This document shows, one piece after another, positions 20 to 18,015 of a stretch of DNA of 64,000 nucleotides. Source of the DNA: Escherichia phage EC100; the sequence record NC_105587.1. One strand, 5' to 3'. The stretch's first letter is position 1. Each line of letters starts with the position of its first letter. The notes beneath the pieces were generated by a model, which was not told the origin of the DNA, searched no databases, and saw nothing but the letters and a program-made list of their open reading frames with translations. The translations under genes were made by a program, and so were the position numbers.

Positions 20-754
20 TTATGCGACTTTTAATTTCTCAATATATTGTTGCGGGCTGCAACTATATTCTGCGCGTTCTTCTTCGGTCATACTTTCCCA
101 ACATAATTGCAGGCGGTCGGCTAGGAACTGATAATCATTATCATCCTCAAGAGATTCATCAATAAAGGTTTCGCCTATCAATGTGACACCGATTGATAGA
201 ATATCGTTAATAGCTTGCGCGTCCAGCGTTTTAAACCCGTATGATGCCGCCGCCGATAGCACGCCTTTATGATCGTCGATCATCGTAAAATCAGCGTTTG
301 GATATAGCTGTTTAAATAGCTCAAAGTAATGGCTTTTATATATAGCGTCTTTACTGTGGTATATTTCGCTAACTTTATCAGCTTCAAAATATTTGTGTAG
401 TGTATCACGGGAAAATACGCGGATATTACTATTACCACGACCACGCAAGCCTTGTTTGCGCAGGAAGTAATAATCTGATTTGCTCATTAGTCGAGCGGTA
501 CAAATAATGTTTAAAGTATTTGCGTCATTCATGCACTGGCGCATATATTCAACCAATGGCAATAAAGTATCCTGCATTATTAAATGATGTTTACACGCTT
601 CATTTTTATACTTATTTAAATCTAAATTGCCCTCATTATCAAAGCAAGGCGCGACACGATGGAAAGAATTAACGATAGTGCCGTCTAAATCCCAAATCAT
701 AACGCGGGAAATATGCGGGAAGCTGCGGGAAATATTCATAATAGCTTTATTCAT
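20..754 (-). CDS. dmp: 5'-deoxyribonucleotidase Dmp (HAD-family phosphatase)
   Basis: 244 aa; HAD motif I 'IWDLDGTIV' near N-terminus; GGAG RBS; size/position as T5 pre-early dmp. Confidence 0.8.
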   Translation of the reverse strand: MNKAIMNISRSFPHISRVMIWDLDGTIVNSFHRVAPCFDNEGNLDLNKYKNEACKHHLIMQDTLLPLVEYMRQCMNDANTLNIICTARLMSKSDYYFLRKQGLRGRGNSNIRVFSRDTLHKYFEADKVSEIYHSKDAIYKSHYFELFKQLYPNADFTMIDDHKGVLSAAASYGFKTLDAQAINDILSIGVTLIGETFIDESLEDDNDYQFLADRLQLCWESMTEEERAEYSCSPQQYIEKLKVA

Positions 755-841
755 TTTGTTACGTTCTCCATTAAAGGGATTAGATTAATTCAATCTAGCC
801 CACTAATTATATTTTATTAGTGGGCTATGTTCAATTAACTA

Positions 842-1240
842 TTAGAACGCCAGACCAAAAGCAAGAGCATCAGCGATAAAACTAACATCCTCACCTGATA
901 CATGGGAACGAATACCCGCGCAGGTATATACTTTTGCGCTGATCAATTGATCATCGAGGCAAGCGAGGCAAGGCGCGACAACTGCAAAGGCTAGACCGGA
1001 TTTTACGGCGTCAATGATAATCGTTTCTTGTTTCACTGTGTCAACATAAACACCTGCGGCCTTAATGTAGCTACTTGCGCGGCCTTGCGTATAGGCAAAG
1101 GTAGTAACCTGCAAAGCGTCATTGAAATCTAACAGATCATCAATAACGTGCCCCGCCTCGACGTGGTAACGTTCACCATTAGAATAAACCAGAACAATGG
1201 AAGACTGAGCGCGATCGAATGGAATATTTTGCTTTTTCAT
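842..1240 (-). CDS. hypothetical protein
   Basis: 132-aa ORF, compact spacing with neighbours. Confidence 0.5.
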   Translation of the reverse strand: MKKQNIPFDRAQSSIVLVYSNGERYHVEAGHVIDDLLDFNDALQVTTFAYTQGRASSYIKAAGVYVDTVKQETIIIDAVKSGLAFAVVAPCLACLDDQLISAKVYTCAGIRSHVSGEDVSFIADALAFGLAF

Positions 1241-1278
1241 ATTTATAAAACCCCAATTAGTTTAATAATGGATTTAAT

Positions 1279-1536
1279 TTATTTGATAATAATCTGCATC
1301 TGGTACGGCGTTAATTCACCGTTTACGGGTAAATTATTATCACTTAGCCACTCATAAAAAGCGCCATCGTCATCAAAAGGAACAATATCATTATCACGGG
1401 AATCGACGGAAATAATACCATCAGTATTAGTTTTGGCGGCTAGGATAGGCCCGAAGCTGTAAACTTTATCGGATTCCATTTCATCCGGTGAAATGAATAC
1501 TTTTTCGTCCAATGTTTTGGGTAATGTAACTTTCAT
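1279..1536 (-). CDS. hypothetical protein
   Basis: 85-aa ORF directly downstream of A1. Confidence 0.45.
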   Translation of the reverse strand: MKVTLPKTLDEKVFISPDEMESDKVYSFGPILAAKTNTDGIISVDSRDNDIVPFDDDGAFYEWLSDNNLPVNGELTPYQMQIIIK

Positions 1537-1591
1537 TTTTTGTGACTCCTGTAATAGCGGCTATATTTCAAGCCGCTAGGGAATAATTTAA

Positions 1592-3256
1592 TTACGCAAA
1601 GAATTTACCGTTCTTAAAGTCAATCAAAGTGCGTTGACCGTTTGCATAGGTAATTAAATGCGTTTGCGTCCAGCTTGACGCGCCAACGTTGTAACCCATA
1701 TCCAGACTACCCGCTACGCCAGCGGTATATACACCGCCGTAAATGCTGGCGGTGTGAGTGTGCCCCGTGTTTAACTTGCCCAATTTCTTAAACTGTTTAG
1801 GATTGCCACGGCTGCCGTTAATGCCATTGTGACCGTGTACGCCACATTCAATGCCTGCAATCTTGAAAGATTGATCAGTGGTCAGGAAAATGGCGTTAAA
1901 TTCACAACCTGCAACCTTGCGCAACGCATAATCTAGCACGTTGAACGTTTCGTCGTGTTCACCGATTGCCGCATAGATTGCAGCATTCAGGCGGTGATAC
2001 AGTTCCGCGTTCGCGGGATCGTCTTTGATGTTAGCATTACGATCATCAAGCCAACGGGATAGCGCCAAATCGTGATTAGATTCAACAATGATTGTTTGAG
2101 AAAAATCACGTTCCATTGATTCCAGCACGCGCCCAGTATCGATTAGATCATCCAAAACTTTATCACGTCCGGCGGCGTATTGTTTCGCTAGGAATACACC
2201 CGATGCGCGATTGTGATGGTTGCGCGATGTAAAATCATGCACGTCATGGATAAACTGATATTTTGGTTTAAGAATATCAAGCAAACTATTATCGCCAGCC
2301 CATGACGCAACGGCACAATCATCATCTAATTTTTCCGCATGAATATCGCCATACTGCAAGCCTAAAACATGCCCCGATGTCTCATAACATCCGGCGGGAG
2401 TAGCGCACACATTCAGATCATAAAACACCCCGCTTTCGTCCATTGTTTCAAGCTGGCGAACAAAAAATTCCCCATCCTCGTCGAACTCAACAATCAGCGC
2501 ACCGAAGTTATGCAGCGCCTCGGCCTTTTGTCCGGCTTTCTGCTGAATGTAGTTTTTGAGCGTTGCCGTTCCGGTTGAATACATACGGCGCACTACTTCA
2601 CCTTTTAAAGCTGGCACGCTTTCGGCGGTAATTTTAGCGTGACCAATCGCAAGCCCCTCAATATTGAGCGCGGTTGCAGTTTCTGCGAATCCTGAAAGCG
2701 GATAATCTGCGGTGGGCAAAACATTAATTTCAGCCATGAAAGCAAAACGGCGGTTATTTAAAAACACGTTTTTGCTGCAAATATATTTATCAAAAGCGGA
2801 ATCGTATTTAATACCGTCCGCACCTTCTCCATTCTGGAAGCCGTTTTTATTATAAATATACTTAGAAACAAGCAAATCAGCACCGATATATTCAGCGAAT
2901 TTTTCCAGACTTGCTAAAAAGTTTTTATGCGGGAAAGTATTATTCTGAATCGACGTAATAATAAAGCGTTTACCCTGTTTTACTTCCCATTGCTCAACCG
3001 TACTAGAAACAATTCCCGCCGCTTCTGGGCGCTCATCGTTTTTAATGGCTTTTGCTACTTTTGCCGCTTTCGGTTTAGCTGGTTTATTTGCTTCCAGCCA
3101 GTCGCAGATAGCGGTTGAATGCTTCGTTGTATCGTAGACCGCTTTTGATATATCGTCGCAGACTTCCAGTTTAGTAGCGCGCAGACGTTTACCATAGAAA
3201 TTAAAGTCAGCGGCCATTTTCAGGATAACAGTTTGCTTTTCTGCGGAAATAATCAT
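1592..3256 (-). CDS. A1: pre-early protein A1 (metallophosphatase-fold nuclease)
   Basis: 554 aa; calcineurin-like motifs 'GDIHAEKLD', 'GVHGHNG', 'GHTHTASIYGG'; size/position as T5 A1. Confidence 0.8.
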   Translation of the reverse strand: MIISAEKQTVILKMAADFNFYGKRLRATKLEVCDDISKAVYDTTKHSTAICDWLEANKPAKPKAAKVAKAIKNDERPEAAGIVSSTVEQWEVKQGKRFIITSIQNNTFPHKNFLASLEKFAEYIGADLLVSKYIYNKNGFQNGEGADGIKYDSAFDKYICSKNVFLNNRRFAFMAEINVLPTADYPLSGFAETATALNIEGLAIGHAKITAESVPALKGEVVRRMYSTGTATLKNYIQQKAGQKAEALHNFGALIVEFDEDGEFFVRQLETMDESGVFYDLNVCATPAGCYETSGHVLGLQYGDIHAEKLDDDCAVASWAGDNSLLDILKPKYQFIHDVHDFTSRNHHNRASGVFLAKQYAAGRDKVLDDLIDTGRVLESMERDFSQTIIVESNHDLALSRWLDDRNANIKDDPANAELYHRLNAAIYAAIGEHDETFNVLDYALRKVAGCEFNAIFLTTDQSFKIAGIECGVHGHNGINGSRGNPKQFKKLGKLNTGHTHTASIYGGVYTAGVAGSLDMGYNVGASSWTQTHLITYANGQRTLIDFKNGKFFA

Positions 3257-3346
3257 AGTAATAAAACTCCATTAAAGGGATTAGATTAATAATGGCAATA
3301 TTGCCAAATATAACGCCTCGAATAATAGGCGTTATAATTTGCAACA

Positions 3347-3544
3347 TTAATTTAAAGGCATCAGGCTAGAACTAACACCACAAGCAACGGCGGCAATAAA
3401 ACAAATCAGACCTAAACGCTTCGCTAACTTAGATTTACGTTTAAAATAATACGAATCTAAATCATTTTGAAAATAAGCGAATAATAGGGAGGCCGCCATA
3501 ATAAATAAGCCTAGAATTAAAGATTCAGTAGGGAAGAAAACCAT
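3347..3544 (-). CDS. small membrane protein
   Basis: 65 aa, two hydrophobic helices. Confidence 0.4.
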   Translation of the reverse strand: MVFFPTESLILGLFIMAASLLFAYFQNDLDSYYFKRKSKLAKRLGLICFIAAVACGVSSSLMPLN

Positions 3545-3598
3545 TTTTAAAACTCCTGATTTAAGGGAAGAAAATAACTATCGCTAAACAGTTATATT

Positions 3599-3623
3599 AT
3601 TGCCCCCTCACTAGAAGGGGGCA
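3599..3623 (-). terminator. hairpin terminator downstream of A2
   Basis: 9-bp stem TTGCCCCCT/AGGGGGCAA. Confidence 0.45.
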
Positions 3624-3634
3624 AGGTATAACTA

Positions 3635-4042
3635 TTATTCACCTGCGGCTTGTTTTACTTCATCTGCAACGCCTAACAGTTGCGCCACCGCGTCCAGCGT
3701 TTCCAGTTTAGCACTTTCAAGGCTTGCCAGATCATCGGCGTCTTTGATAATGCCGGAATCAATAGCATGTTTAGCGATAACGCGTACATAATGCGCTTTA
3801 CGGATTGAACTACCGCCGCCAACTTTGCGCGGCTTATCGCTTTTTTGATATGCTTTCGCGCTGGTCAATTTTGACCGAACGGATACAGGAGAAGCCGCGC
3901 CTACTGCTTTTGCAATCTCTTTCAGGCCGTCGCTATTTGCAAAATCTAAACCGTTTTCATTAATTAACTGCTGATACATGGAAACAGCTTTCTGAGTGTT
4001 TTCTTCATTCCATGCGAATTTTGCGGTTTTAGCGTTAGTCAT
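3635..4042 (-). CDS. A2: pre-early protein A2 (putative DNA-binding)
   Basis: 135 aa, immediately upstream of A1 in same orientation; shares leader motif with dmp and A1. Confidence 0.6.
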   Translation of the reverse strand: MTNAKTAKFAWNEENTQKAVSMYQQLINENGLDFANSDGLKEIAKAVGAASPVSVRSKLTSAKAYQKSDKPRKVGGGSSIRKAHYVRVIAKHAIDSGIIKDADDLASLESAKLETLDAVAQLLGVADEVKQAAGE

Positions 4043-4139
4043 GATAAAACTCCTATTAGTTTAATTTAAGGGATTAGATTAACTTAATGTTAATCGTTAT
4101 ATCCCCCTGAAATAAGAGGGATATAAAGTTAGCACTAAA

Positions 4140-4391
4140 TTATAAAACAGCTTCCCATTTTTCGTTGCGTTGAACAACCTTTACAACATCGCCGGATTTA
4201 ACGCGAACGCTAAAAACGGGTTTGCTGTTGTTACTGCGTTCCGTTTCAGCGTATACCGCGTCGATTGTATCAAACGGCATAAGCGCCGCGCCTTTAATAC
4301 GTTCGGCTTTTCCGGTTAATTCATCCGTTTTAGTAACGAAAGGAATAAAAACGGATTGACCAATTTTAGGCGCGGTAATAACGTTTTGCAT
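4140..4391 (-). CDS. hypothetical protein
   Basis: 83-aa ORF with AGGAG RBS. Confidence 0.5.
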   Translation of the reverse strand: MQNVITAPKIGQSVFIPFVTKTDELTGKAERIKGAALMPFDTIDAVYAETERSNNSKPVFSVRVKSGDVVKVVQRNEKWEAVL

Positions 4392-4617
4392 AATATAAAC
4401 TCCTAGTTATTTGGGGATTGTTCCGCATTACCTGCTAGAAAGTAGCAGGTAATAAGTAACAATCCGCTCGCCAATATAATCAATTTAAAGAACTCCACGT
4501 AGGCCGCTATATCCCGTTAGGGGGCGGGATGCTTTATGGTAAGCACCGACCGTCAAATTTTATCAAGTTATCGCTCTTTTCGAACTGGGTACATCTTAAA
4601 ACCTATCGGCTAGGCTG

Positions 4618-4821
4618 TCAAACAATTTTTTGAGATTTTTTATGATTTTCCCTCAGGTCAATCATAATGTTTCTCCAGATCATTTCTAAACCTTGCTGGC
4701 GACCTTGCAAATATTGCTTGAATCGCCATTTTACAGAATTTTGCGCTACTGTCAACAAGTTTTTTGTTTTGCTATCTAGTGCCTTGCTAGGCTTGCCAGT
4801 GATCAAAAGCGTTTGTTTCAT
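4618..4821 (-). CDS. hypothetical protein
   Basis: 67-aa ORF, weak RBS. Confidence 0.3.
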   Translation of the reverse strand: MKQTLLITGKPSKALDSKTKNLLTVAQNSVKWRFKQYLQGRQQGLEMIWRNIMIDLRENHKKSQKIV

Positions 4822-5332
4822 ATCGTCGATTCCTTATAATGAATAAGTTTACCGCCGATAGGCTTTAAGATATACCCAATTTTTAAAGAGCGTGGCGGTA
4901 AACTTCCCGCCGTGTAGTTCGTCATTGCCGCCCTACGAGATAAATAATAACAAACAACGAAAAAGGCGCAACCTTATTTTTGTAAAGAAATGTAAAGACA
5001 AACGCCACCGGACACCATGCGGCGATCTGGGCGCAGCGCATTAAAATTAAAAGAAACGGGCGCGCGATTACCACAAAATAAAGCAGATATGCAAGTAATT
5101 TTTTCATTTATATTTGCTTTGCCCTACTTGACAAAATCCAAAAAGCTCATGGCGGCGATAAACGGCTTATCCCCTTATGATGGGATGGCTAAAAACTTTA
5201 TTGCGTTCTGGAGCGTTTTAGGCCGCTTATTTTCGACTTAACAAATCATTAACATAAGCAAAATTGAAAAATAGTTTGAAAAGATCTTGACTTTTAAAAA
5301 TCAAGATCAAATGACTTATTTTATAAAATAAA

Positions 5333-5851
5333 TTAATTGACAATTCCATATTCAGCTTTTTTAATTTCAAGCCATAATAATAACTCTTGTAAATCATAAC
5401 CAGACTTACTAACACGCTTGTTAGTAATAGGATTCTTAATTTGAGCAGTCAAATAGTCACGCCCGTAATTATCACGGGGGCGAACTTTATTAACGTAAAT
5501 GTTTTTAGGGATACCATTAGCACGCTTACAGTTTTCATACTCACTAGGAGTGCGATTATAATTATTCTGCGAACTATCAACCGCGCGAAGATTCCAGATG
5601 TTATTATTACGAGTGTTACGATCAATATGGTCAATCATTAGCTCGCTATCTATACCGCCATTCATTATACAAAAGATAATTCTATGTACTTTGAATTGTC
5701 CCATGTCTAATAGTTCAACTTGCCAATAATTACCATTTAAACCACCTGCGATGGCGTGATCTTCTCGCCAACGTAAAAATGATAACGCTGTTTCATCATA
5801 ATAAAAGTAACTATTAAAAAGGTCATAGTCTATATCTTTATATTTAGGCAT
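5333..5851 (-). CDS. HNH homing endonuclease
   Basis: 172 aa; HNH motif 'IDHIDRNTRNNNIWNLRAV'. Confidence 0.7.
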   Translation of the reverse strand: MPKYKDIDYDLFNSYFYYDETALSFLRWREDHAIAGGLNGNYWQVELLDMGQFKVHRIIFCIMNGGIDSELMIDHIDRNTRNNNIWNLRAVDSSQNNYNRTPSEYENCKRANGIPKNIYVNKVRPRDNYGRDYLTAQIKNPITNKRVSKSGYDLQELLLWLEIKKAEYGIVN

Positions 5852-6040
5852 CTAATTGTTTCCTTATGTTATTACTTTAATCTCTATTATATTATATCAA
5901 AATGATTAGCAGACTAGCTAATGAGTTTTTCAGGATTAGTTAGCAGACTCATAATCACGGTAAAATCCTATTAGCCAACTAACTATATTTTACGATATAA
6001 TAACTTTATAAATTAGTTAGTGAGAAAAACTATCATTTAA

Positions 6041-6122
6041 GTTATCCACAGACTTAATCACAGCACAAAATAATTTGACACGATAGGCGGCGATATAAAG
6101 ACTTTTACACAGACTTATCCAC
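6041..6122 (+). promoter_or_regulatory. two DnaA-box-like sites (TTATCCACA)
   Basis: exact 9-mer at 6041-6049 and 6114-6122, both within ...CAGACTTATCCACAG... context. Confidence 0.5.
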
Positions 6123-6417
6123 AGCTTATTCTACTGTATAAATATACAAGGTAAAAAGGTAGTGTTAACAACTGCAATCAATTTTAAGCGGCCTAAAACG
6201 CTTTCTAACGAGCTAAATGCGGTGGGGTAATATTAAAGTAAAGCCTTCACCCGTCGCCCTGGTGGCTTCGCCGTGTTTTGCTCTTTATTGCACCGCTGCG
6301 CGGTTAGCATAAAATTAGGCGCTAGGCAAGGAGTAAAAAACATTTTCTTTTTTCTTGCCCCCAGCGAACAAATATCTATATCATTCACTCACCGATTAAC
6401 GAGGGAGGCCGAACAAA

Positions 6418-7427
6418 TGAGGCTGTATAAACCTGATAATGCCACCGTATTAAAGGGTGCATTGCGCAACCTGCTGGACGGTAGCAAGTCAACCAGCATT
6501 AAACATTTTATTAACAAGATTGAAACTACTCATCAAAACTTTTTTGATGACTATGATGCCTATGATATGGATAGTTTTTTGCCGTTGTATAAACAAGGGG
6601 CAACGCTTGTTTTATATAACCGTGATTGCCATATCTTTACAGGCAGGGGAGCAGGGCCGGATACCGATTTTATTGTTGCGCAGGGTAATAATATTGTTGC
6701 GTATCATAGCAATTCAGGCCGTCAATCATTTAATATAAATGTTTTTGAGCTTATTGGGCTTGATCTGATAAACGGACTTTCTAGCATTGAGGGATTTTTA
6801 GATGTTATCTGGAAGCATTTACCAGCTGGATGGTATAAGCCGGATAACGACGGATCTCAATATACTGGTATAATGGCTTTTGATGGCGATGGTAATTTTT
6901 TGTTACCACGGGAGTTATACCCGTATATTTATGATGGGGATATAGAAAGCGCTGGTTTTTCTTTCTGGAAAGATGAAGATCAGATTATTGACAGCGTAGA
7001 AAACCATGCTGTAAATTCTAACACTCAAAACGTTAATACTCAAACTACTGAAAACAAAGGAAAAAATACCATGACCAAGATTGCTAACATCGTTGCCGCC
7101 AATAAATCCGCTGTTGTAAACGCTGCAAAACTGGAAGCGGGTAAAATTGCATTAACTCAAATCACGAAAGTAGCGGCTAAAAAAGCACCGTTTATGATTA
7201 AAGGTTATATTGATACGCCTATCGGTCGAGTAGTAATTGCTAACCTGCTGAGTGTGGCGGTTGACCAGTACGCACCGACTAACCAAAAGGCGAAAGCGGT
7301 AGCAGGCGCGGCTATGGAAGCGGCAATGCTGGAAATGGTGCAAAGTTTTAACATCGCTGAAATGATTGATGAAATGGTGAAAGGTATTGATATTTCTACT
7401 TTTACCACTAGCACCGAAAGCGAGTAA
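6418..7427 (+). CDS. hypothetical protein
   Basis: ORF trimmed to ATG 6418 preceded by GAGGGAGG RBS; ~336 aa. Confidence 0.55.
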
Positions 7428-7436
7428 TAATATTTG

Positions 7437-7460
7437 GCGGGGATTGTTTCCCCGCTTTAC
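7437..7460 (+). terminator. rho-independent terminator
   Basis: GCGGGGA-loop-TCCCCGC then T-rich. Confidence 0.5.
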
Positions 7461-7492
7461 TATTCCCTTGTTAATTAATAGGAGGCTAATAA

Positions 7493-7987
7493 ATGGCTGA
7501 GGAAAAATACGGGTTTTCGCTAGGGGAGGAGAGCAAGGCAAAACATGATATGATCATTTTGGTCGATTGTCATACTGGCTATTGCGGTGAAGGGAATACT
7601 GAGGAATATTTTGTTCCTGCTGGTACGGATCTCGACGCTTTCGCCCATGAAATGGCTGTTGATAATGCTTCTCGTTTTGGTAGCGATGGTTACGAAGACG
7701 AAGAAACGGGCGATTGGTATGAGAATGATAATGTATATGCAAGCCTTTATCATTATCAATTAAGTAAATCCGGCACATATGTAAACGGCGGTGATCCTAT
7801 TAATTCCGTCATGAAATTAATTATTAAATATGGCGGCGTCGAGATAGTCGATAACAAAGCGGTAATATATGCAAACCGATTAAAACAGCTTGTTTATATC
7901 CCTGATAGTACCCGATGGGAGGAATATGCTGTTTTGCATGATGAATTAAAACGATGTTTCAATATTGAAACCTTACAAGTAGTTTAA
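7493..7987 (+). CDS. hypothetical protein
   Basis: 164 aa; AGGAGG RBS; followed by terminator. Confidence 0.55.
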   Translation: MAEEKYGFSLGEESKAKHDMIILVDCHTGYCGEGNTEEYFVPAGTDLDAFAHEMAVDNASRFGSDGYEDEETGDWYENDNVYASLYHYQLSKSGTYVNGGDPINSVMKLIIKYGGVEIVDNKAVIYANRLKQLVYIPDSTRWEEYAVLHDELKRCFNIETLQVV

Positions 7988-8000
7988 TGTAAAGTTTTGT

Positions 8001-8028
8001 AAAGGCCGCCTCTTATGGCGGCCTTTTT
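8001..8028 (+). terminator. rho-independent terminator
   Basis: AGGCCGCC-TCTTA-GGCGGCCT then TTTTTTGTT. Confidence 0.65.
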
Positions 8029-8094
8029 TGTTATAATGCCCTTACACCGTTTGAGGACGGTTGAAAATTTTCCCAAAAATTTTGGAGGCTTATA

Positions 8095-8325
8095 ATGGTT
8101 GCTTATTCTTCTTCTGACGCTCTTTTCACTGGAAAAGGTTGGGTATCAAATCGCTGGATCATTCAAGAAATGGTGCAAGAATACGGCATTGCTAAAACTT
8201 ACACTACCATTCAGGCGCTTTATGATAATGATCAAATCGATCAGCAAACGGCGGGCTTTTTACTGGATACCCTGAAGGCGGAACACTGTACTAAAAAACA
8301 AGCCGCAAAAATTATTTTAATGTAA
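8095..8325 (+). CDS. hypothetical protein
   Basis: 76 aa, GGAGG RBS. Confidence 0.5.
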   Translation: MVAYSSSDALFTGKGWVSNRWIIQEMVQEYGIAKTYTTIQALYDNDQIDQQTAGFLLDTLKAEHCTKKQAAKIILM

Positions 8326-8371
8326 CTAATAACGGGGCGTTACTTTCGCCCCACTAACTAGGGGAATAAAA

Positions 8372-8518
8372 ATGGTTATTTTTCGAGCTATTCTAGCAGG
8401 TATCTTGGGCGCTATTTTATCCTTTTTTGCTATAGCTTTCGACGTTCACGCGGTTATTATTGGTGCGGGTATCGCTGTTTTTTCTTATTTGCTGGGCTGC
8501 ATGAATAAAGGAGAATAA
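8372..8518 (+). CDS. tiny membrane protein
   Basis: 48-aa hydrophobic ORF (below ORF-track cutoff), GGGGAA RBS. Confidence 0.35.
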   Translation: MVIFRAILAGILGAILSFFAIAFDVHAVIIGAGIAVFSYLLGCMNKGE

Positions 8519-8520
8519 AA

Positions 8521-8733
8521 ATGATTCGTAACGTTTCCCTTGCTCGTTCAAAGGGTTTTAAGCTGGTGGACGTTAACACGTTCGAGCGGGAAGATTGTAA
8601 AATCGAATATGTAGCACGGAATAAAAACGCCTTTCGTGTTACAGAAAAGAGATTCGATAAGCGCGGCAACGTGATAGCTGAAACGGTTAAATATTTTGCC
8701 ACCTTTTACGCGGCCTTTCGTGGGGTGCTATGA
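8521..8733 (+). CDS. hypothetical protein
   Basis: 70 aa, start abuts previous stop. Confidence 0.45.
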   Translation: MIRNVSLARSKGFKLVDVNTFEREDCKIEYVARNKNAFRVTEKRFDKRGNVIAETVKYFATFYAAFRGVL

Positions 8734-8855
8734 AAAGCGTTGTTATTATTATCCTTGCAATGGTTGGCGGTTTTACCGCCACCTTATTTAAGAATGATCC
8801 CCTTTTACTGGGGATTTTTATGCTTTTATCTGGTTACCTGATTGGGAGGTTATAA
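8730..8855 (+). CDS. tiny membrane protein
   Basis: 41-aa hydrophobic ORF, ATG overlaps upstream stop (ATGA). Confidence 0.35.
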   Translation: MKSVVIIILAMVGGFTATLFKNDPLLLGIFMLLSGYLIGRL

Positions 8856-8856
8856 A

Positions 8857-9201
8857 ATGGTAATTTATGAGGGCAATCGCTTTGTTGCTAATTGCCGCCC
8901 GGCATTATTAGCAAACTACTTAAATCAGCTTTCACCTGAATATAAAGGCGTCATAAATATTTACGAGGGAAAGGCGCATTATAAGATCAACGCGGTCGTT
9001 GCCCGTGAACTAGCATTTCAATTTTTGACCTTCGCATCTTGTGATATTCAGGTCATGGGTGAGGCGTTAATTGCAGAAAATGAAGACGATTTTATTAATA
9101 TTTTTCGCAAGGTGTGCACCGAGCGCCTGATCATGAAAGGCGCGTATATTCAGTCAACTGCGGAAAGTATTGAAACAGCATTTAGGAAGGTGGCGCAATG
9201 A
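8857..9201 (+). CDS. hypothetical protein
   Basis: ORF trimmed to ATG 8857 (GGGAGG RBS). Confidence 0.5.
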   Translation: MVIYEGNRFVANCRPALLANYLNQLSPEYKGVINIYEGKAHYKINAVVARELAFQFLTFASCDIQVMGEALIAENEDDFINIFRKVCTERLIMKGAYIQSTAESIETAFRKVAQ

Positions 9202-9356
9202 AAAAAATTTTGATAGCTGGTATGTTTCCTTTGTTGCCTTATGTAATTTGCTGGGCTTTATATGCTCATGGTGCTAGTGTTCCCGGTGTGGCTTCATTTG
9301 GTGTATCGGCTGGTTTTCTAACCGGACTATTGGCAAGCGTATATTTACGCAAATAA
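9198..9356 (+). CDS. tiny membrane protein
   Basis: 52-aa hydrophobic ORF, ATG overlaps upstream stop. Confidence 0.35.
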   Translation: MKKILIAGMFPLLPYVICWALYAHGASVPGVASFGVSAGFLTGLLASVYLRK

Positions 9357-9374
9357 TTAATAACGGGAGTTATT

Positions 9375-9569
9375 ATGAGCAATAAAATTATTGTGACCAA
9401 AACTAGTACAATGGTTGATGTTTTTTACGTGCCCGATACGCCGGAAAACCGACAAGCGGTCGAGCGTGGCGAGTATGATAAAGTGATTTATGATCACGAT
9501 GGTTATTACCAGTATTTGGTCGATTCCTACGGGGAGGAGGAGAAGATCACGCATCAATTACCGGACTGA
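9375..9569 (+). CDS. hypothetical protein
   Basis: 64 aa, GGGAG RBS, followed by terminator. Confidence 0.5.
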   Translation: MSNKIIVTKTSTMVDVFYVPDTPENRQAVERGEYDKVIYDHDGYYQYLVDSYGEEEKITHQLPD

Positions 9570-9575
9570 CAACAA

Positions 9576-9598
9576 GCGGGGAGCAGATCCCCGTTTTT
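9576..9598 (+). terminator. rho-independent terminator ending + strand operon
   Basis: CGGGGA-GCAGA-TCCCCG then TTTTTC. Confidence 0.6.
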
Positions 9599-9750
9599 CA
9601 GGCCTGCAATCAGATACCCCTTTGTTTTAGTATCCCCGCCAAAATTAAACGCGTTAGAATGCGATTCAGGACGTTTTAAGCCTATATTAGAATTATTCAC
9701 TGCATAGGAATACTGTATATTTATACAGTAGAATAACCTGGGGATAAGTC

Positions 9751-9820
9751 TGTGGATAACGCTTCAAAATGGCTAGGATTCTGTCAAGTCAAATCGTGCT
9801 GTTGATAAGTCTGTGGATAA
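9751..9820 (-). promoter_or_regulatory. two DnaA-box-like sites (TTATCCACA on reverse strand)
   Basis: TGTGGATAA at 9751-9759 and 9812-9820, each within an 18-nt repeat GATAAGTCTGTGGATAAC. Confidence 0.5.
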
Positions 9821-9840
9821 CTTAAATAGCAGTGTTTCTC

Positions 9841-10020
9841 ACTTCCATTTTTAAATGAGAATCATTATCATTTGCATTTCACTATCTAACCGATAATCAT
9901 TCCACTTTTTAAATGAGAATCATTTCACTTCTTGAATAATTCTCATCCCCTTTCTTAAATGCAAATCATTATCATTCGCATTTCACTTTTTAAATGAGAT
10001 TGATTCTCATTATCATTCGT
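9841..10020. repeat. degenerate tandem repeats
   Basis: three copies of TTTTTAAATGAGAATCATT and two of ATCATTATCATT(T/C)GCATTTCAC. Confidence 0.6.
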
Positions 10021-10030
10021 ATTTAGGCGA

Positions 10031-10048
10031 GCAGGGCAATTGCCCTGC
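10031..10048. repeat. perfect 18-bp palindrome
   Basis: GCAGGGCAATTGCCCTGC. Confidence 0.7.
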
Positions 10049-10053
10049 GCTTT

Positions 10054-10655
10054 TGTGCAAATCCGACAATTGCTCCAAGGGTTACGTGCTAGCGTGTATG
10101 TGCGAATCCGACAATTTTTGGTAGTGTGCAAATCCGACCCTAAAAACTTTTGTGATGTGCAAATCCGACAATGAATTTTCCTAAAAACTCCAGCAATCAC
10201 GAACTGCGTTCGAATCCTGTGGAATTAGCTAGAGTATGTGCAAATCCGACATGTGTTGAGATGTGCGAATCCGACAAGATTTTTGTGACTTCGATTGGAG
10301 GGTGTGTGATTGTATAGGTTTGAGGAGAAGATGAGAGAGCGAGAAAAATTTGAGGGGCTAGAAGGATGTGGGCGCAGGATTGGTGCGGAGCACCTGATTT
10401 GCGGGGATTTTGGGGAAGATGTAAGATAATTTGGGAAGATTTGAGATAGGTGCAGAAAAAGTGAAATTTTATTAGCAAAATGGAGCAAAATAGCTTGACA
10501 AGTGAAAATTCTTGTGGCTCTAAAAACTCAGGCAATCATGGGCCTTCGGCCCGAAATAATGCTGCCATTTTCAGAAGATTATGTGTCCATGAAAACTTAG
10601 GCGATTGTGCAAATCCGACCATAAATTTCTAGAAACACAATGTGCAAATCCGACA
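10054..10655 (+). repeat. array of eight direct 15-nt iterons (consensus ATGTGCAAATCCGACA)
   Basis: copies at ~10054, 10098, 10126, 10155, 10236, 10261, 10605, 10640, all same orientation. Confidence 0.75.
10300..10500 (+). repeat. purine-rich (GA) tract
   Basis: ~200 nt of almost exclusively G/A/T with GAGA/GGGG runs on + strand. Confidence 0.5.
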
Positions 10656-11192: not shown

Positions 11193-12077
11193 TTACAGTA
11201 ACTCTTGGTATGCTTTTTGATACGCCTCAGTGTCAGTAGGTGTATCTTTTGCTAGCGCAATTAGTTCATCTGTTATCTGAATATTCGTATTATAACGTGT
11301 GTGGAACTCGTTAGGAATTTCTAGGTATCTATTGATGAATGCTGCAGCAAGCGGTGTGACTAAACCAATCTCTAGAGATAGCTTAACTTGTTTTTCGTAG
11401 ATTAAATATTGAGAATCAGATGGGATTGGTGGGGTTACATCAATTTTCTCTGGTTCTTTTTCTGGAAGCAATGGATTATTATATAATGCTTCATCTGGAA
11501 GCACAGATTTACGCTCTTTAAATATATAAGTTTCTAGATCCGATGCTTTAGATCCTGAGTATACAGCGAAGATGCTAGCTTTACCTTGTGATGCCCTAAC
11601 TGGTAGATAACTAGTAGGATAACTTCTTAATGCATCATGGAATGGACTTCCTGAGTACTTGTATGTATCTCCATAGAGATCATCAATATTCATTCGTTCA
11701 TTTTCAAAAATGTGAAATGACTTAAATGGTGGAATGGTGAAGTATTCCATCTGTAACCCATAAACTAAGAAACGATGTGCATATGCACTGATTTTTAAGA
11801 CTGTGAATGCTTTTTCACCTTCTTTATGGGCGTTGCCTTTTGAAGTAACTTGGTAACGTTTACAAAACATCTCTACTAGACGTTTCTCATTAATACTAAG
11901 GGTGGAGTACAGTCGTCCACTTAATCCTATAAGTGCATCGAACATAAATGCTAGTTTATCTTTTTCTTCCGGGGTTAGTTCAGGAAATGGAAGTACTTTA
12001 GCATTAGGAACACTATTATTCTCCTTAGGTTTTGTTTTACCAGCGTTTTGTCTTAGTTTATCTTTAAAGTTATACAT
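11193..12077 (-). CDS. hypothetical protein
   Basis: 294-aa ORF, first gene right of the repeat region. Confidence 0.55.
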   Translation of the reverse strand: MYNFKDKLRQNAGKTKPKENNSVPNAKVLPFPELTPEEKDKLAFMFDALIGLSGRLYSTLSINEKRLVEMFCKRYQVTSKGNAHKEGEKAFTVLKISAYAHRFLVYGLQMEYFTIPPFKSFHIFENERMNIDDLYGDTYKYSGSPFHDALRSYPTSYLPVRASQGKASIFAVYSGSKASDLETYIFKERKSVLPDEALYNNPLLPEKEPEKIDVTPPIPSDSQYLIYEKQVKLSLEIGLVTPLAAAFINRYLEIPNEFHTRYNTNIQITDELIALAKDTPTDTEAYQKAYQELL

Positions 12078-17424: not shown

Positions 17425-18015
17425 TCAGACATTTATATCACCACGTAATACAGCAGCTACGTCTTCCCCTATTTGTAATACCTCGCCGGTAGTACAATTA
17501 ACTACTCTATCATAGCTAGTAAACTTACCAGACACAATATCCTCTAGCGGAATTGGAGTTTTACTCATTTCAAATGAAACGTTGATATAACGTGGATCAC
17601 GTAGAGAAGTAGTATGTACGTGTCCATGAATATTTAGTTTGCCACGAAGTTCATTGGGGTGCAAAGGGCAGTGAGATAGCCAAAACTTTTTGCCACCTCC
17701 AGTCTGTTTACCTAGAGCCTGAATATCATCATAAACTTCTGCTAAGTCCCTAATGCTCAGTCCTTGACGTTCCGCATCATGATTACCCATAATGAGTTGG
17801 TTAGGAACATTGTGGATAACCGACTTTAATTTGGCCAGACCTTCACGACCTACTGCAATATCCCCTAGCAAAATAAGTTTTGTTCGTTTACCAATATGCT
17901 TGGACAAAGTGTCTAGAATATACTCATCGTGCTCCTTCATGTTCTTAAACCACGGACGGAAACGTAACGCTCCAGGGTGGTCTAGGTGCAAGTCTGACCA
18001 GAATTTAACTTTCAT
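17425..18015 (-). CDS. metallophosphoesterase (calcineurin-like)
   Basis: 196 aa; 'DLHLDHP', 'GDIAVG', 'GNHD', 'GHVH' motifs. Confidence 0.7.
   Translation of the reverse strand: MKVKFWSDLHLDHPGALRFRPWFKNMKEHDEYILDTLSKHIGKRTKLILLGDIAVGREGLAKLKSVIHNVPNQLIMGNHDAERQGLSIRDLAEVYDDIQALGKQTGGGKKFWLSHCPLHPNELRGKLNIHGHVHTTSLRDPRYINVSFEMSKTPIPLEDIVSGKFTSYDRVVNCTTGEVLQIGEDVAAVLRGDINV

What the first reader, a model, noticed from the sequence alone, without database searches (positions are those of the whole stretch)
6041..9820. Inverted pairs of DnaA boxes bracket the + strand pre-early operon
Two exact TTATCCACA boxes lie at 6041-6049 and 6114-6122 (+ orientation) and two more at 9751-9759 and 9812-9820 (- orientation, inside an 18-nt repeat GATAAGTCTGTGGATAAC). 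They flank the only + strand gene block in the pre-early region (6418-9569). Paired high-affinity DnaA sites suggest host DnaA is recruited here, for example to pause DNA entry, organise the injection-stop region or regulate the operon.
Basis: partly seen in the sequence, partly recalled or inferred. Interest (0 to 1): 0.5.

Follow-up and report, generated by a model that had tools for sequence, protein, structure and literature searches.

The report
Known DnaA-box repeats of T5-like phages
The four DnaA boxes are real and far from chance, but they are the long-described inverted repeats of phage T5 relatives. The idea that host DnaA docks there to pause DNA injection is already published and still untested.

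Summary
The window is Escherichia phage EC105, a T5-like Tequintavirus.

They belong to a 130-nt inverted repeat (6019-6148 / 9714-9843). It carries eight boxes arranged as four tandem "double DnaA boxes" with 3-bp spacers. This is T5's IRC-spacer-IRD / IRD'-spacer-IRC'. It was seen in 1987, is annotated in GenBank, and was analysed by Davison (bioRxiv 2020), who proposed the same DnaA injection-stop idea. No experiment has tested it. So the finding is already known.

What I add:
- The spacing matches the double-box rule for DnaA binding in vivo in E. coli.
- Between the two old paralogous arms, the motifs are conserved but the spacers are not.
- Perfect boxes bracket the same operon in Vibrio, Aeromonas, Proteus, Erwinia and Klebsiella relatives.
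- A near-consensus LexA (SOS) palindrome adjoins the boxes family-wide. I found no paper describing it.
- A viable T5 deletion mutant lacks the whole left arm.

DnaA binding is likely. I favour an operator or boundary role over a physical injection brake.

The parts
6019..6148 (+). Left arm of the inverted repeat (T5 'IRC-spacer-IRD'). Weaker homology to the right arm continues inward to about 6250.
   Evidence: I1: 130 nt, 78% complementary; extended alignment; T5 annotation; present in 39 of 40 A2-anchored loci
6042..6062 (+). Double DnaA box L1-L2: TTATCCACA-GAC-TTAATCACA
6075..6080 (+). TTGACA hexamer in the 'spacer'. It is 99% conserved in both arms of 30 T5-like phages. Function unknown; no usable -10 element at 16-18 bp.
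6103..6123 (+). Double DnaA box L3-L4: TTTTACACA-GAC-TTATCCACA
6126..6134 (+). Third, degenerate box TTATTCTAC, 2 bp after L4. It overlaps the SOS-like palindrome by 3 nt.
   Evidence: read; flanking block 92-95% conserved
6132..6151 (.). Left SOS-like palindrome, degenerate in this phage (TACTGTATAAATATACAAGG). It is intact (CTGT-N8-ACAG) in most other T5-like left arms.
6417..9569 (+). The bracketed second pre-early operon: 8 CDSs, including DUF7566 (a T5.011 homologue) and a homologue of the Ung-dependent nickase T5.015 at 8521-8733. No transposase or recombinase. Content and length vary among phages (arm-to-arm distance 1.6-4.1 kb).
9577..9593 (+). G+C-rich hairpin followed by TTTTT, read as the terminator of the + operon (T5 'palindrome C').
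   Evidence: (I8)
9711..9730 (.). Near-consensus LexA/SOS-box-like palindrome TACTGTATATTTATACAGTA (T5 'palindrome D'), at the inner edge of the right arm.
   Evidence: 1 mismatch to the 20-mer consensus; 0 expected by chance; family-wide conservation
9714..9843 (-). Right arm of the inverted repeat (T5 'IRD'-spacer-IRC''). It is the better conserved copy and lies at the start of the injection-stop region.
   Evidence: (89-98% identity for T5-like loci with A2 >=86% identical, 74-76% for the 66% group; left arm 80-96%)
9739..9759 (-). Double DnaA box R3-R4: TTATCCACA-GAC-TTATCCCCA (read on the - strand)
9782..9787 (-). TTGACA hexamer, mirror copy of 6075-6080
9800..9820 (-). Double DnaA box R1-R2: TTATCCACA-GAC-TTATCAACA (read on the - strand)
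9831..10024 (.). A+T-rich repeat zone (27.5% G+C over 9836-10024) of TGAGAAnCAyT / 'DRE'-type repeats. It begins with the arm's outer motif AGTGAGAAACACT.
   Evidence: (D1, D4, I2)
10054..10654 (+). Eight direct copies of TGTGCRAATCCGAC (T5 'DRD' repeats, iteron-like). They form the rest of the injection-stop region.
   Evidence: 8 copies against 0.02 expected

Best explanation
These are the conserved IRC-spacer-IRD / IRD'-spacer-IRC' repeats of T5-like phages. They act as landing pads for pre-existing host DNA-binding proteins on the first-step-transfer DNA.

Shown by sequence:
- There are four tandem double DnaA boxes, each a strong box plus a weaker one 3 bp apart. They point inward at both borders of the second pre-early operon.
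- In each arm an SOS-box-type palindrome follows the inner double box, about 10 bp further in.

Inferred:
- DnaA dimers or short oligomers occupy the double boxes as soon as the DNA is in the cytoplasm.
- LexA probably occupies the palindrome.
- Together they form a composite operator or boundary complex, like the DnaA/LexA co-repressed uvrBp3 promoter of E. coli.
- That complex limits or insulates transcription at the edges of the toxic accessory operon, and keeps transcription out of the injection-stop DNA at the right arm.

The right copy is the conserved core. The left copy is accessory. A contribution of the right-arm complex to the injection pause is possible but is not the favoured primary role.
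For: - The element is identical in layout to the annotated T5 repeats and to Davison's eight-box description.
- The double-box geometry matches the in vivo DnaA rule: pairs 2-3 bp apart, one box near consensus and one weaker (PMC11317965). The window holds 4 such pairs against 0 expected, all at 3-bp spacing.
- In 30 distinct phages x 8 sites, box positions 1, 2, 4, 8 and 9 are nearly invariant. Variation sits at positions 3 and 5 (W and N of TTWTNCACA) and at 6-7.
- 107 of 120 pairs keep at least one consensus box, and the perfect box can swap places within a pair.
- The two arms are old paralogues. Boxes (0.85-0.96), TTGACA (0.99) and the palindrome (0.92) are shared; the spacer (0.67) and flanks (0.62-0.68) are not.
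- In Erwinia, Proteus, Klebsiella, Aeromonas and two Vibrio relatives, all 21 perfect boxes in six loci of 17-22 kb lie in the two intergenic zones bracketing the operon divergent from A2/A1. They lie next to a CTGT-N8-ACAG palindrome.
- Host precedent: DnaA and LexA co-repress uvrBp3 through overlapping boxes (PMC6015884).
- The same composite element lies in divergent intergenic regions of unrelated virulent phages.
- The left arm lies between divergent pre-early promoters. Genes of the operon are toxic.
Against: - No binding or expression data exist for any T5-like phage.
- The annotated or characterised T5 promoters do not overlap the arms: P011 is about 200 bp inside the left arm and T5P3 about 90-120 bp outside it.
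- The consensus scan finds only weak promoter-like sites inside the arms.
- The right arm, the better conserved copy, lies downstream of a terminator with no gene to regulate.
- Conservation among close T5-likes is high everywhere, so that panel alone discriminates poorly.
- Resemblance to a LexA box partly overlaps with resemblance to a -10 element.
Confidence: 0.4

Rival explanations
1. Davison's model. Membrane-associated host DnaA captures the eight boxes as the DNA enters, possibly knotting the two arms together. This physically halts DNA transfer, so the boxes are the injection stop signal. A1/A2 later release the block.
For: - The right arm lies at the start of the annotated T5 iss, about 200 bp left of the 7.9% nick and shear point.
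- It is the more conserved arm, and Davison reports it retained where the left arm is lost.
- The stop needs no phage protein synthesis (established T5 biology, from my own knowledge), so a pre-existing host factor fits.
- The high-affinity double boxes are conserved family-wide.
Against: - The left arm has two equally good double boxes but entry does not stop at about 6 kb.
- A T5 mutant lacking the whole left arm is viable, so a two-arm knot is not essential.
- The same composite element occurs in unrelated phages that show no A1/A2/dmp in the locus fetched.
- My inference: binding of a diffusing protein to DNA already inside the cell does not obviously block further entry, and ejection is fast.
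- Part of the sheared fragment may have been in the roughly 250-nm tail (about 700 bp), so the right arm may not even be cytoplasmic at the pause.
- Never tested.
Confidence: 0.2
2. The arms organise DNA rather than transcription. DnaA (with or without LexA) complexes protect, anchor or bend the first-step DNA, or prepare the terminal-repeat copies for recombination or circularisation after second-step transfer.
For: - The elements lie in the terminal repeat, next to the A+T-rich repeats, the nick site and the iteron-like repeats.
- The inverted symmetry and the fixed 61-bp register of the double boxes are conserved.
Against: - There is no specific evidence for this role.
- The arms are only 78% alike, so they are poor substrates for homologous recombination.
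- The left arm is dispensable.
Confidence: 0.12
3. The 9-mers are sites for a phage protein (for example the essential DNA-binding protein A2) or another host protein. The match to the DnaA box is then coincidental.
For: - A2 is a DNA-binding protein required for second-step transfer.
- Its Klebsiella-phage homologue is annotated 'tandem repeat DNA binding protein'.
- About a quarter of box copies carry C6>A (TTATNAACA), which is outside the stringent DnaA consensus.
Against: - The perfect TTATCCACA is kept in phages whose A1 is 31-42% identical and whose DNA is otherwise unalignable.
- Variation follows the DnaA consensus at W and N.
- The 3-bp tandem geometry is the DnaA dimer geometry.
- A2 is more plausibly matched to the eight direct TGTGCRAATCCGAC repeats (inference).
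Confidence: 0.1
4. The region is an origin-like element. DnaA boxes, an A+T-rich repeat zone and iterons make up a plasmid-type replication origin in the terminal repeat.
For: The layout resembles iteron origins: a DnaA box cluster, a 27.5% G+C repeat zone, and 8 direct repeats. Davison notes the resemblance to oriC.
Against: - T5 origins were mapped near the genome centre, and the replication genes are not expressed during first-step transfer (as summarised).
- The left arm has boxes but neither iterons nor an A+T-rich zone.
- T5 encodes its own replication machinery (established knowledge).
Confidence: 0.05

Closest known systems
T5 inverted repeats IRC-spacer-IRD and IRD'-spacer-IRC' with DnaA/DnaA* boxes (Heusterspreute et al. 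1987 as cited; GenBank AY587007; Davison, bioRxiv 10.1101/866236)
   Same: - Same position in the left terminal repeat.
- Same 130-nt arms, 83-94% identical to T5's own arms.
- Same eight boxes in four pairs 3 bp apart, and same adjoining palindrome D.
- Same downstream DRE and DRD repeats.
   Different: Only allelic detail differs. EC105 has all eight boxes, four of them perfect, whereas T5 has 7 boxes of which 3 are perfect. The bracketed operon differs in content.
E. coli 'double DnaA box' sites such as purH, polA, mioC and DARS2 (Stringer, Fitzgerald & Wade 2024, PMC11317965)
   Same: Two boxes in tandem, 3 bp apart, one perfect and one with 7-8 of 9 matches. This is the geometry reported as required for DnaA occupancy in vivo.
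   Different: The phage carries four such sites within 3.8 kb, arranged as two inverted pairs with a 61-bp register. Host sites are single regulatory sites. Occupancy on the phage DNA is untested.
Composite DnaA/LexA operator of E. coli uvrBp3 (also recN, dinJ) (Wurihan et al. 2018, PMC6015884)
   Same: DnaA boxes directly adjoin or overlap a LexA box. In the phage a degenerate third box overlaps the palindrome by 3 nt.
   Different: No promoter has been shown inside the phage arms. The phage element is duplicated in inverted orientation around an operon. LexA binding is untested.
oriC and iteron-type plasmid origins
   Same: Clustered DnaA boxes lie next to an A+T-rich repeat zone and direct repeats.
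   Different: No evidence of initiation here. T5 origins were mapped elsewhere. Box spacing is 3 bp and the arms are inverted, unlike oriC arrays.

Membership tests
T5-type IRC-spacer-IRD / IRD'-spacer-IRC' repeat pair | A pair of inverted repeats of about 130 bp in the left terminal repeat, flanking the rightward pre-early operon. | tested here: met
   Arms at 6019-6148 and 9714-9843. Homologous arms occur in 39 of 40 A2-anchored T5-like loci, including T5 itself. T5 annotation.
T5-type IRC-spacer-IRD / IRD'-spacer-IRC' repeat pair | Eight DnaA/DnaA* boxes in four pairs separated by 3 bp, at fixed positions in the arms. | tested here: met
   The 61-bp start-to-start register is the same in both arms (D11/D12).
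T5-type IRC-spacer-IRD / IRD'-spacer-IRC' repeat pair | The right arm is followed by the DRE and DRD repeats of the injection-stop region. | tested here: met
   compared with the T5 features.
Double DnaA box (in vivo DnaA dimer site) | Two 9-mers in the same orientation, 2-3 bp apart, at least one near consensus and the other at least 7 of 9. | tested here: met
   Four sites, all with 3-bp spacing; the partner boxes match 7/9, 7/9, 8/9 and 8/9. Criterion from PMC11317965.
Double DnaA box (in vivo DnaA dimer site) | DnaA occupancy (ChIP or footprint). | not testable with these tools
   No experimental data found for any T5-like phage.
T5 injection stop signal (functional iss) | A cis-acting sequence whose removal abolishes the pause after about 8% of the genome. 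| not testable with these tools
   Only positional evidence: the right arm lies within the annotated T5 iss. The left arm is deleted in a viable T5 mutant, but the pause was not measured.
LexA operator (SOS box) | CTGT-N8-ACAG palindrome with an A+T-rich centre (16-mer CTG-N10-CAG; PMC2994835). | tested here: met
   9711-9730 has 1 mismatch to TACTG(TA)5CAGTA, with 0 expected by chance. The motif is intact (CTGT-N8-ACAG) in 27 of 30 right arms and 24 of 30 left arms, and in six distant relatives.
LexA operator (SOS box) | Overlaps a promoter and is bound by LexA. | tested here: inconclusive
   Only weak promoter-like matches overlap it. The annotated T5 promoters lie elsewhere. Binding is not testable here.
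DnaA-dependent replication origin | A DnaA box cluster next to an unwinding element, with initiation mapped there. | tested here: inconclusive
   Box cluster and a 27.5% G+C repeat zone are present. Initiation is not testable here; the literature places T5 origins centrally.
Transposon-like cassette bounded by inverted repeats (for example Tn5 ends with a DnaA box) | A transposase or recombinase encoded between the repeats. | tested here: not met
   None of the eight cargo proteins matches a transposase or recombinase in Pfam or PHROGs.

The most novel reading that the evidence does not exclude
The functional unit is not the DnaA boxes alone. It is a composite host-sensing element: a double DnaA box abutting a LexA/SOS operator. 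It is conserved at both borders of the second pre-early operon across Demerecviridae, from T5 to Vibrio and Aeromonas phages. It recurs in divergent intergenic regions of unrelated virulent phages.

It would let incoming phage DNA read the host's replication-initiation and DNA-damage state. That reading could gate expression of toxic takeover genes or progression of infection. I found no description of the LexA component in the searchable literature.
Probability: 0.3. Interest if true: 0.65.

Novelty: already known. Interest (0 to 1): 0.3.

Why it matters
How T5 pauses DNA injection after about 8% of its genome has been an open question since the 1960s. These boxes are the only concrete host-factor candidate in the region.

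The finding as written adds nothing to what Heusterspreute (1987), the GenBank annotation and Davison (2015/2020) already describe. The follow-up does sharpen the question in three ways:
- The boxes fit the modern in vivo rule for DnaA binding.
- They are conserved, together with an SOS-type palindrome, far beyond the phages compared before.
- Existing T5 deletion mutants already remove one arm.

The competing models (brake or operator) can therefore be tested now with tools that exist. If the composite DnaA/LexA element is real, it would be a way for strictly virulent phages to sense host state.

Tried and rejected
- **Small RNAs read inward from each arm.** The extended arm homology and the terminator-like hairpins suggested them. 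RNAalifold on 30 phages gave no consensus structure for either side (energies 0.0 and -1.8). Rejected.
- **Rfam.** No family matches in or near the arms. The only weak hits sit on the terminator hairpin at about 8001-8026.
- **A sigma-70 promoter using the conserved TTGACA.** No acceptable -10 element lies at 16-18 bp, and the -11 position varies A/G among left arms. Not supported.
- **A transposon or invertible cassette.** The cargo holds no transposase or recombinase. The arms are only 78% alike. Left and right arms cluster separately across phages, so there is no concerted evolution.
- **IHF site search by eye in the spacer.** No match to WATCAANNNNTTR.
- **Relaxed consensus TTWTNCACA as a statistic.** It is not enriched window-wide (10 against 7.8 expected). 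The signal lies in the perfect boxes and their pairing.
- **Orientation dependence of DnaA transcription roadblocks (Schaefer & Messer).** The literature search did not retrieve the source, so this argument is not used.
- **Technical failures.** Searches failed on term length. One search failed on a file path and timed out. All were repeated successfully.


Full report
**Identity of the window.** The region 5800-10300 is 100% identical to Escherichia phage EC105 (ON185582.1; Demerecviridae, Tequintavirus), in the same coordinates as the record. It is 86-92% identical to many T5-like phages. The genes at 20-5851 are on the - strand and include A1, A2 and an HNH endonuclease. Eight CDSs at 6417-9569 form the only + strand block of the pre-early region. 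Early genes on the - strand resume at 11193.

**Check of the observation.**
- Exact TTATCCACA occurs at 6042-6050 (+), 6115-6123 (+), 9751-9759 (-), 9812-9820 (-) and 17811-17819 (-). That is 5 sites against 0.58 expected, and 0 of 100 shuffles reach 5.
The rest, including the 18-nt repeat, are right.
- The relaxed consensus TTWTNCACA is not enriched window-wide. The signal is in the perfect boxes and their arrangement.
- Each perfect box has a tandem partner 3 bp away. This makes four double boxes: 6042-6062 and 6103-6123 on +, 9739-9759 and 9800-9820 on -.
- No such pair exists at any other spacing from 0 to 12 bp, none elsewhere in the 64 kb, and none in 100 simulated sequences. The box at 17811 has no partner.
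- All eight boxes lie in register in a 130-nt inverted repeat, 6019-6148 / 9714-9843, that is 78% complementary. Weaker homology continues inward to about 235 nt.

**What is already known.**
- GenBank AY587007 annotates the same features in T5: inverted repeats C, D, D' and C', palindrome D, a terminator (palindrome C), the 7.9% nick and the DRD repeats.
- AY543070 marks 9140-10149 as the injection stop signal.
- Davison's preprint (10.1101/866236) compares 25 T5-like phages. It reports eight DnaA/DnaA* boxes in pairs 3 bp apart in IRC-spacer-IRD and IRD'-spacer-IRC'.
- It credits the first sighting to 1987. It proposes that membrane-bound DnaA binds them and stops injection.
- A 2023 paper on BF23 states that experimental studies of these sites are lacking. 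A 2026 PNAS paper still lists DnaA boxes among proposed features of the iss.

The finding and its interpretation are therefore already published and still untested.

**Comparative evidence I added: close relatives.** I anchored on the A2 protein rather than on the boxes, and retrieved 40 loci from viral contigs. Of these, 39 carry both arms; the remaining contig ends too early.
- The arm-to-arm distance ranges from 1.6 to 4.1 kb, so the bracketed operon is variable cargo.
- The right arm is more conserved than the left arm. Among loci whose A2 is at least 86% identical, it is 89-98% identical to the window, against 80-96% for the left arm. In the three loci with 66% A2 identity the right arm falls to 74-76%.
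- In 30 distinct phages x 8 sites, box positions 1, 2, 4, 8 and 9 are nearly invariant. Variation sits at positions 3 and 5, the W and N of the DnaA consensus, and at 6-7.
- 107 of 120 pairs keep at least one consensus box. In the inner right pair the perfect box is sometimes the first member and sometimes the second.
- The left outer spacer varies freely (seven different trinucleotides) while its boxes are kept.
- The two arms are old paralogues that do not evolve in concert. They share the boxes (0.85-0.96), a TTGACA hexamer (0.99), an outer AGTGAGAAnCACT motif (0.94) and a palindrome (0.92). They do not share the 22-nt spacer (0.67) or the flanks (0.62-0.68).

**Comparative evidence I added: distant relatives.** I fetched six Demerecviridae whose A1 is 31-73% identical: Erwinia KEY, Proteus M4H10_20, Klebsiella VAC51, Aeromonas TS3 and two Vibrio phages.
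- Vibrio and Aeromonas phages are not among those named in Davison's set.
- All 21 perfect TTATCCACA boxes in these loci (17-22 kb each) lie in the two intergenic zones that bracket the operon divergent from A2/A1.
- The boxes mostly point inward, and each zone has a CTGT-N8-ACAG palindrome on its cargo side.
- The nucleotide sequence is otherwise unalignable at this distance. Perfect 9-mers matching a host-protein consensus are therefore best explained by selection for that host protein.

**Fit to current DnaA biology.** ChIP-seq in E. coli showed that DnaA binds in vivo almost only to double boxes 2-3 bp apart. The typical site has one perfect and one 7/9 box. Changing the spacing by +1 abolishes binding. 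Only 13 of 32 single perfect boxes in the genome are bound (PMC11317965). The phage's four sites meet this rule exactly. This link postdates Davison's preprint and raises the likelihood that DnaA really binds.

**The adjoining SOS-type palindrome.**
- TACTGTATATTTATACAGTA at 9711-9730 is one mismatch from the 20-mer LexA consensus, with 0 expected by chance. The 16-mer form is CTG-N10-CAG (PMC2994835).
- It is T5's 'palindrome D'.
- The CTGT-N8-ACAG motif is intact in 27 of 30 right arms and 24 of 30 left arms. The window's left copy, 6132-6151, is degenerate.
- In distant relatives the CTGTAT/ATACAG half-sites are kept while the centre varies, as expected for a dimer site rather than a -10 element.
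- A degenerate third box (TTATyCTAC), 2 bp after the inner box, overlaps the palindrome by 3 nt. E. coli uvrBp3 shows the same kind of overlap and is co-repressed by DnaA and LexA (PMC6015884).
- Davison's text does not mention LexA or SOS. Three literature searches found no paper linking LexA with T5-like phages. The library is limited, so this is absence of evidence only.

**A wider lead.** The pattern TTATCCACA-N(8-30)-CTGTAT-N4-ATACAG has 81 hits in IMG/VR, against roughly one expected by my own estimate.
- About half are T5-like genomes.
- The rest include unrelated uncultured phages. In these a double box, often with 2-bp spacing, abuts the palindrome in a divergent intergenic region next to terminase/portal or tail-fibre genes.
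- Their closest cultured relatives are marine podophages and ICP2-like Vibrio phages, at 24-35% protein identity.

**Experimental constraint from the literature.** A 2026 preprint built a T5 mutant deleted 'from hegG to 017'. I mapped its junction primers on AY543070. The deletion spans about 5390-9160. It removes hegG, the whole left arm (perfect boxes at 6121 and 6194, palindrome at 6213) and genes 011-017. It keeps palindrome D (9411) and the right arm.
- The phage is viable. When the deletion is combined with the left-side deletions, plaques are smaller.
- The bracketing arrangement and any two-arm loop are therefore not essential. The injection pause was not measured.

**Mechanism.** DnaA binding to the four double boxes is likely; I put it at about 0.75. 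The function of that binding is open.

Four points count against a simple brake:
- The left arm has equally good sites but does not stop entry at 6 kb.
- The left arm is dispensable.
- The element recurs in unrelated phages.
- Binding a protein to DNA already inside the cell does not obviously block further entry (my inference).

Three points favour some role at the injection-stop boundary:
- The right arm's position.
- Its stronger conservation.
- Its retention where the left arm is lost.

Four points favour an operator or boundary role:
- Non-origin double boxes and LexA boxes are transcription operators in the host.
- The uvrBp3 precedent exists.
- The left arm lies between divergent pre-early promoters.
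- The cargo is toxic.

Two points count against the operator role:
- No known promoter overlaps the arms.
- The right arm has no gene to regulate.

I commit to the composite host-factor operator or boundary complex at 0.4, with the DnaA brake at 0.2.

**Verdict.** Novelty is 'already known'. Interest is 0.3. The interest rests mainly on the long-standing injection-stop question and on the undescribed LexA-type partner site and its wider distribution.

Noticed in passing
window 9711-9730 (and degenerate copy 6132-6151); L042-L047: A near-consensus LexA/SOS-box palindrome adjoins the inner DnaA double box. The CTGT-N8-ACAG motif is intact in 27 of 30 T5-like right arms and 24 of 30 left arms, and in Erwinia, Proteus, Klebsiella, Aeromonas and Vibrio relatives. 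T5 annotates it only as 'palindrome D'. I found no paper linking LexA to T5-like phages.
   Followed up: partly
L075/L080/L094/L113, L081/L103/L125, L100/L122, L077, L084/L095, L050, L073 (IMG/VR contigs): The same composite (a double DnaA box abutting a CTGTAT-N4-ATACAG palindrome) occurs in divergent intergenic regions of unrelated uncultured phages. It lies next to terminase/portal or tail-fibre genes. In L113 the palindrome has a double box on each side.
   Followed up: partly
window 6075-6080 (+) and 9782-9787 (-); 6019-6031 (+) and 9831-9843 (-): A TTGACA hexamer (99% conserved) and an outer AGTGAGAAnCACT motif (94%) are shared by both arms in 30 phages. Neither has an evident function. 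The outer motif resembles the TGAGAATCATT repeats clustered at 9856-10009.
   Followed up: partly
window 10054-10654: Eight direct copies of TGTGCRAATCCGAC, all on the + strand (0.02 expected). They are iteron-like. The A2 homologue of a Klebsiella relative is annotated 'tandem repeat DNA binding protein', which suggests A2 as their ligand.
   Followed up: no
AY543070 ~5390-9160 (T5; equivalent to window ~5310-9575): Primer mapping shows that the published T5 'hegG to 017' deletion removes the entire left repeat arm with its DnaA boxes, and the phage is viable. The authors do not discuss this.
   Followed up: yes
window 9713-9728 versus other phages (alignment): The centre of the palindrome flips between ...TATAAATATA... 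and ...TATATTTATA... among closely related phages. The two forms are reverse complements, as if the palindrome core inverts or its asymmetry is unconstrained.
   Followed up: no
window 17811-17819 (-): A fifth perfect TTATCCACA, but single: no partner box at any spacing from 0 to 12 bp. It lies outside the repeat region, consistent with a chance or unbound site.
   Followed up: partly
window 8521-8733 (+): The bracketed operon encodes a homologue of T5.015, the nickase that cuts abasic sites made by host Ung (PHROG 4227). This is a DNA-damaging function sitting between two SOS-type palindromes.
   Followed up: no
window 5333-5851 (-): An HNH homing endonuclease gene lies just left of the left arm. 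This matches the insertion that splits T5 repeat regions 1 and 2 in only some T5-like phages.
   Followed up: no
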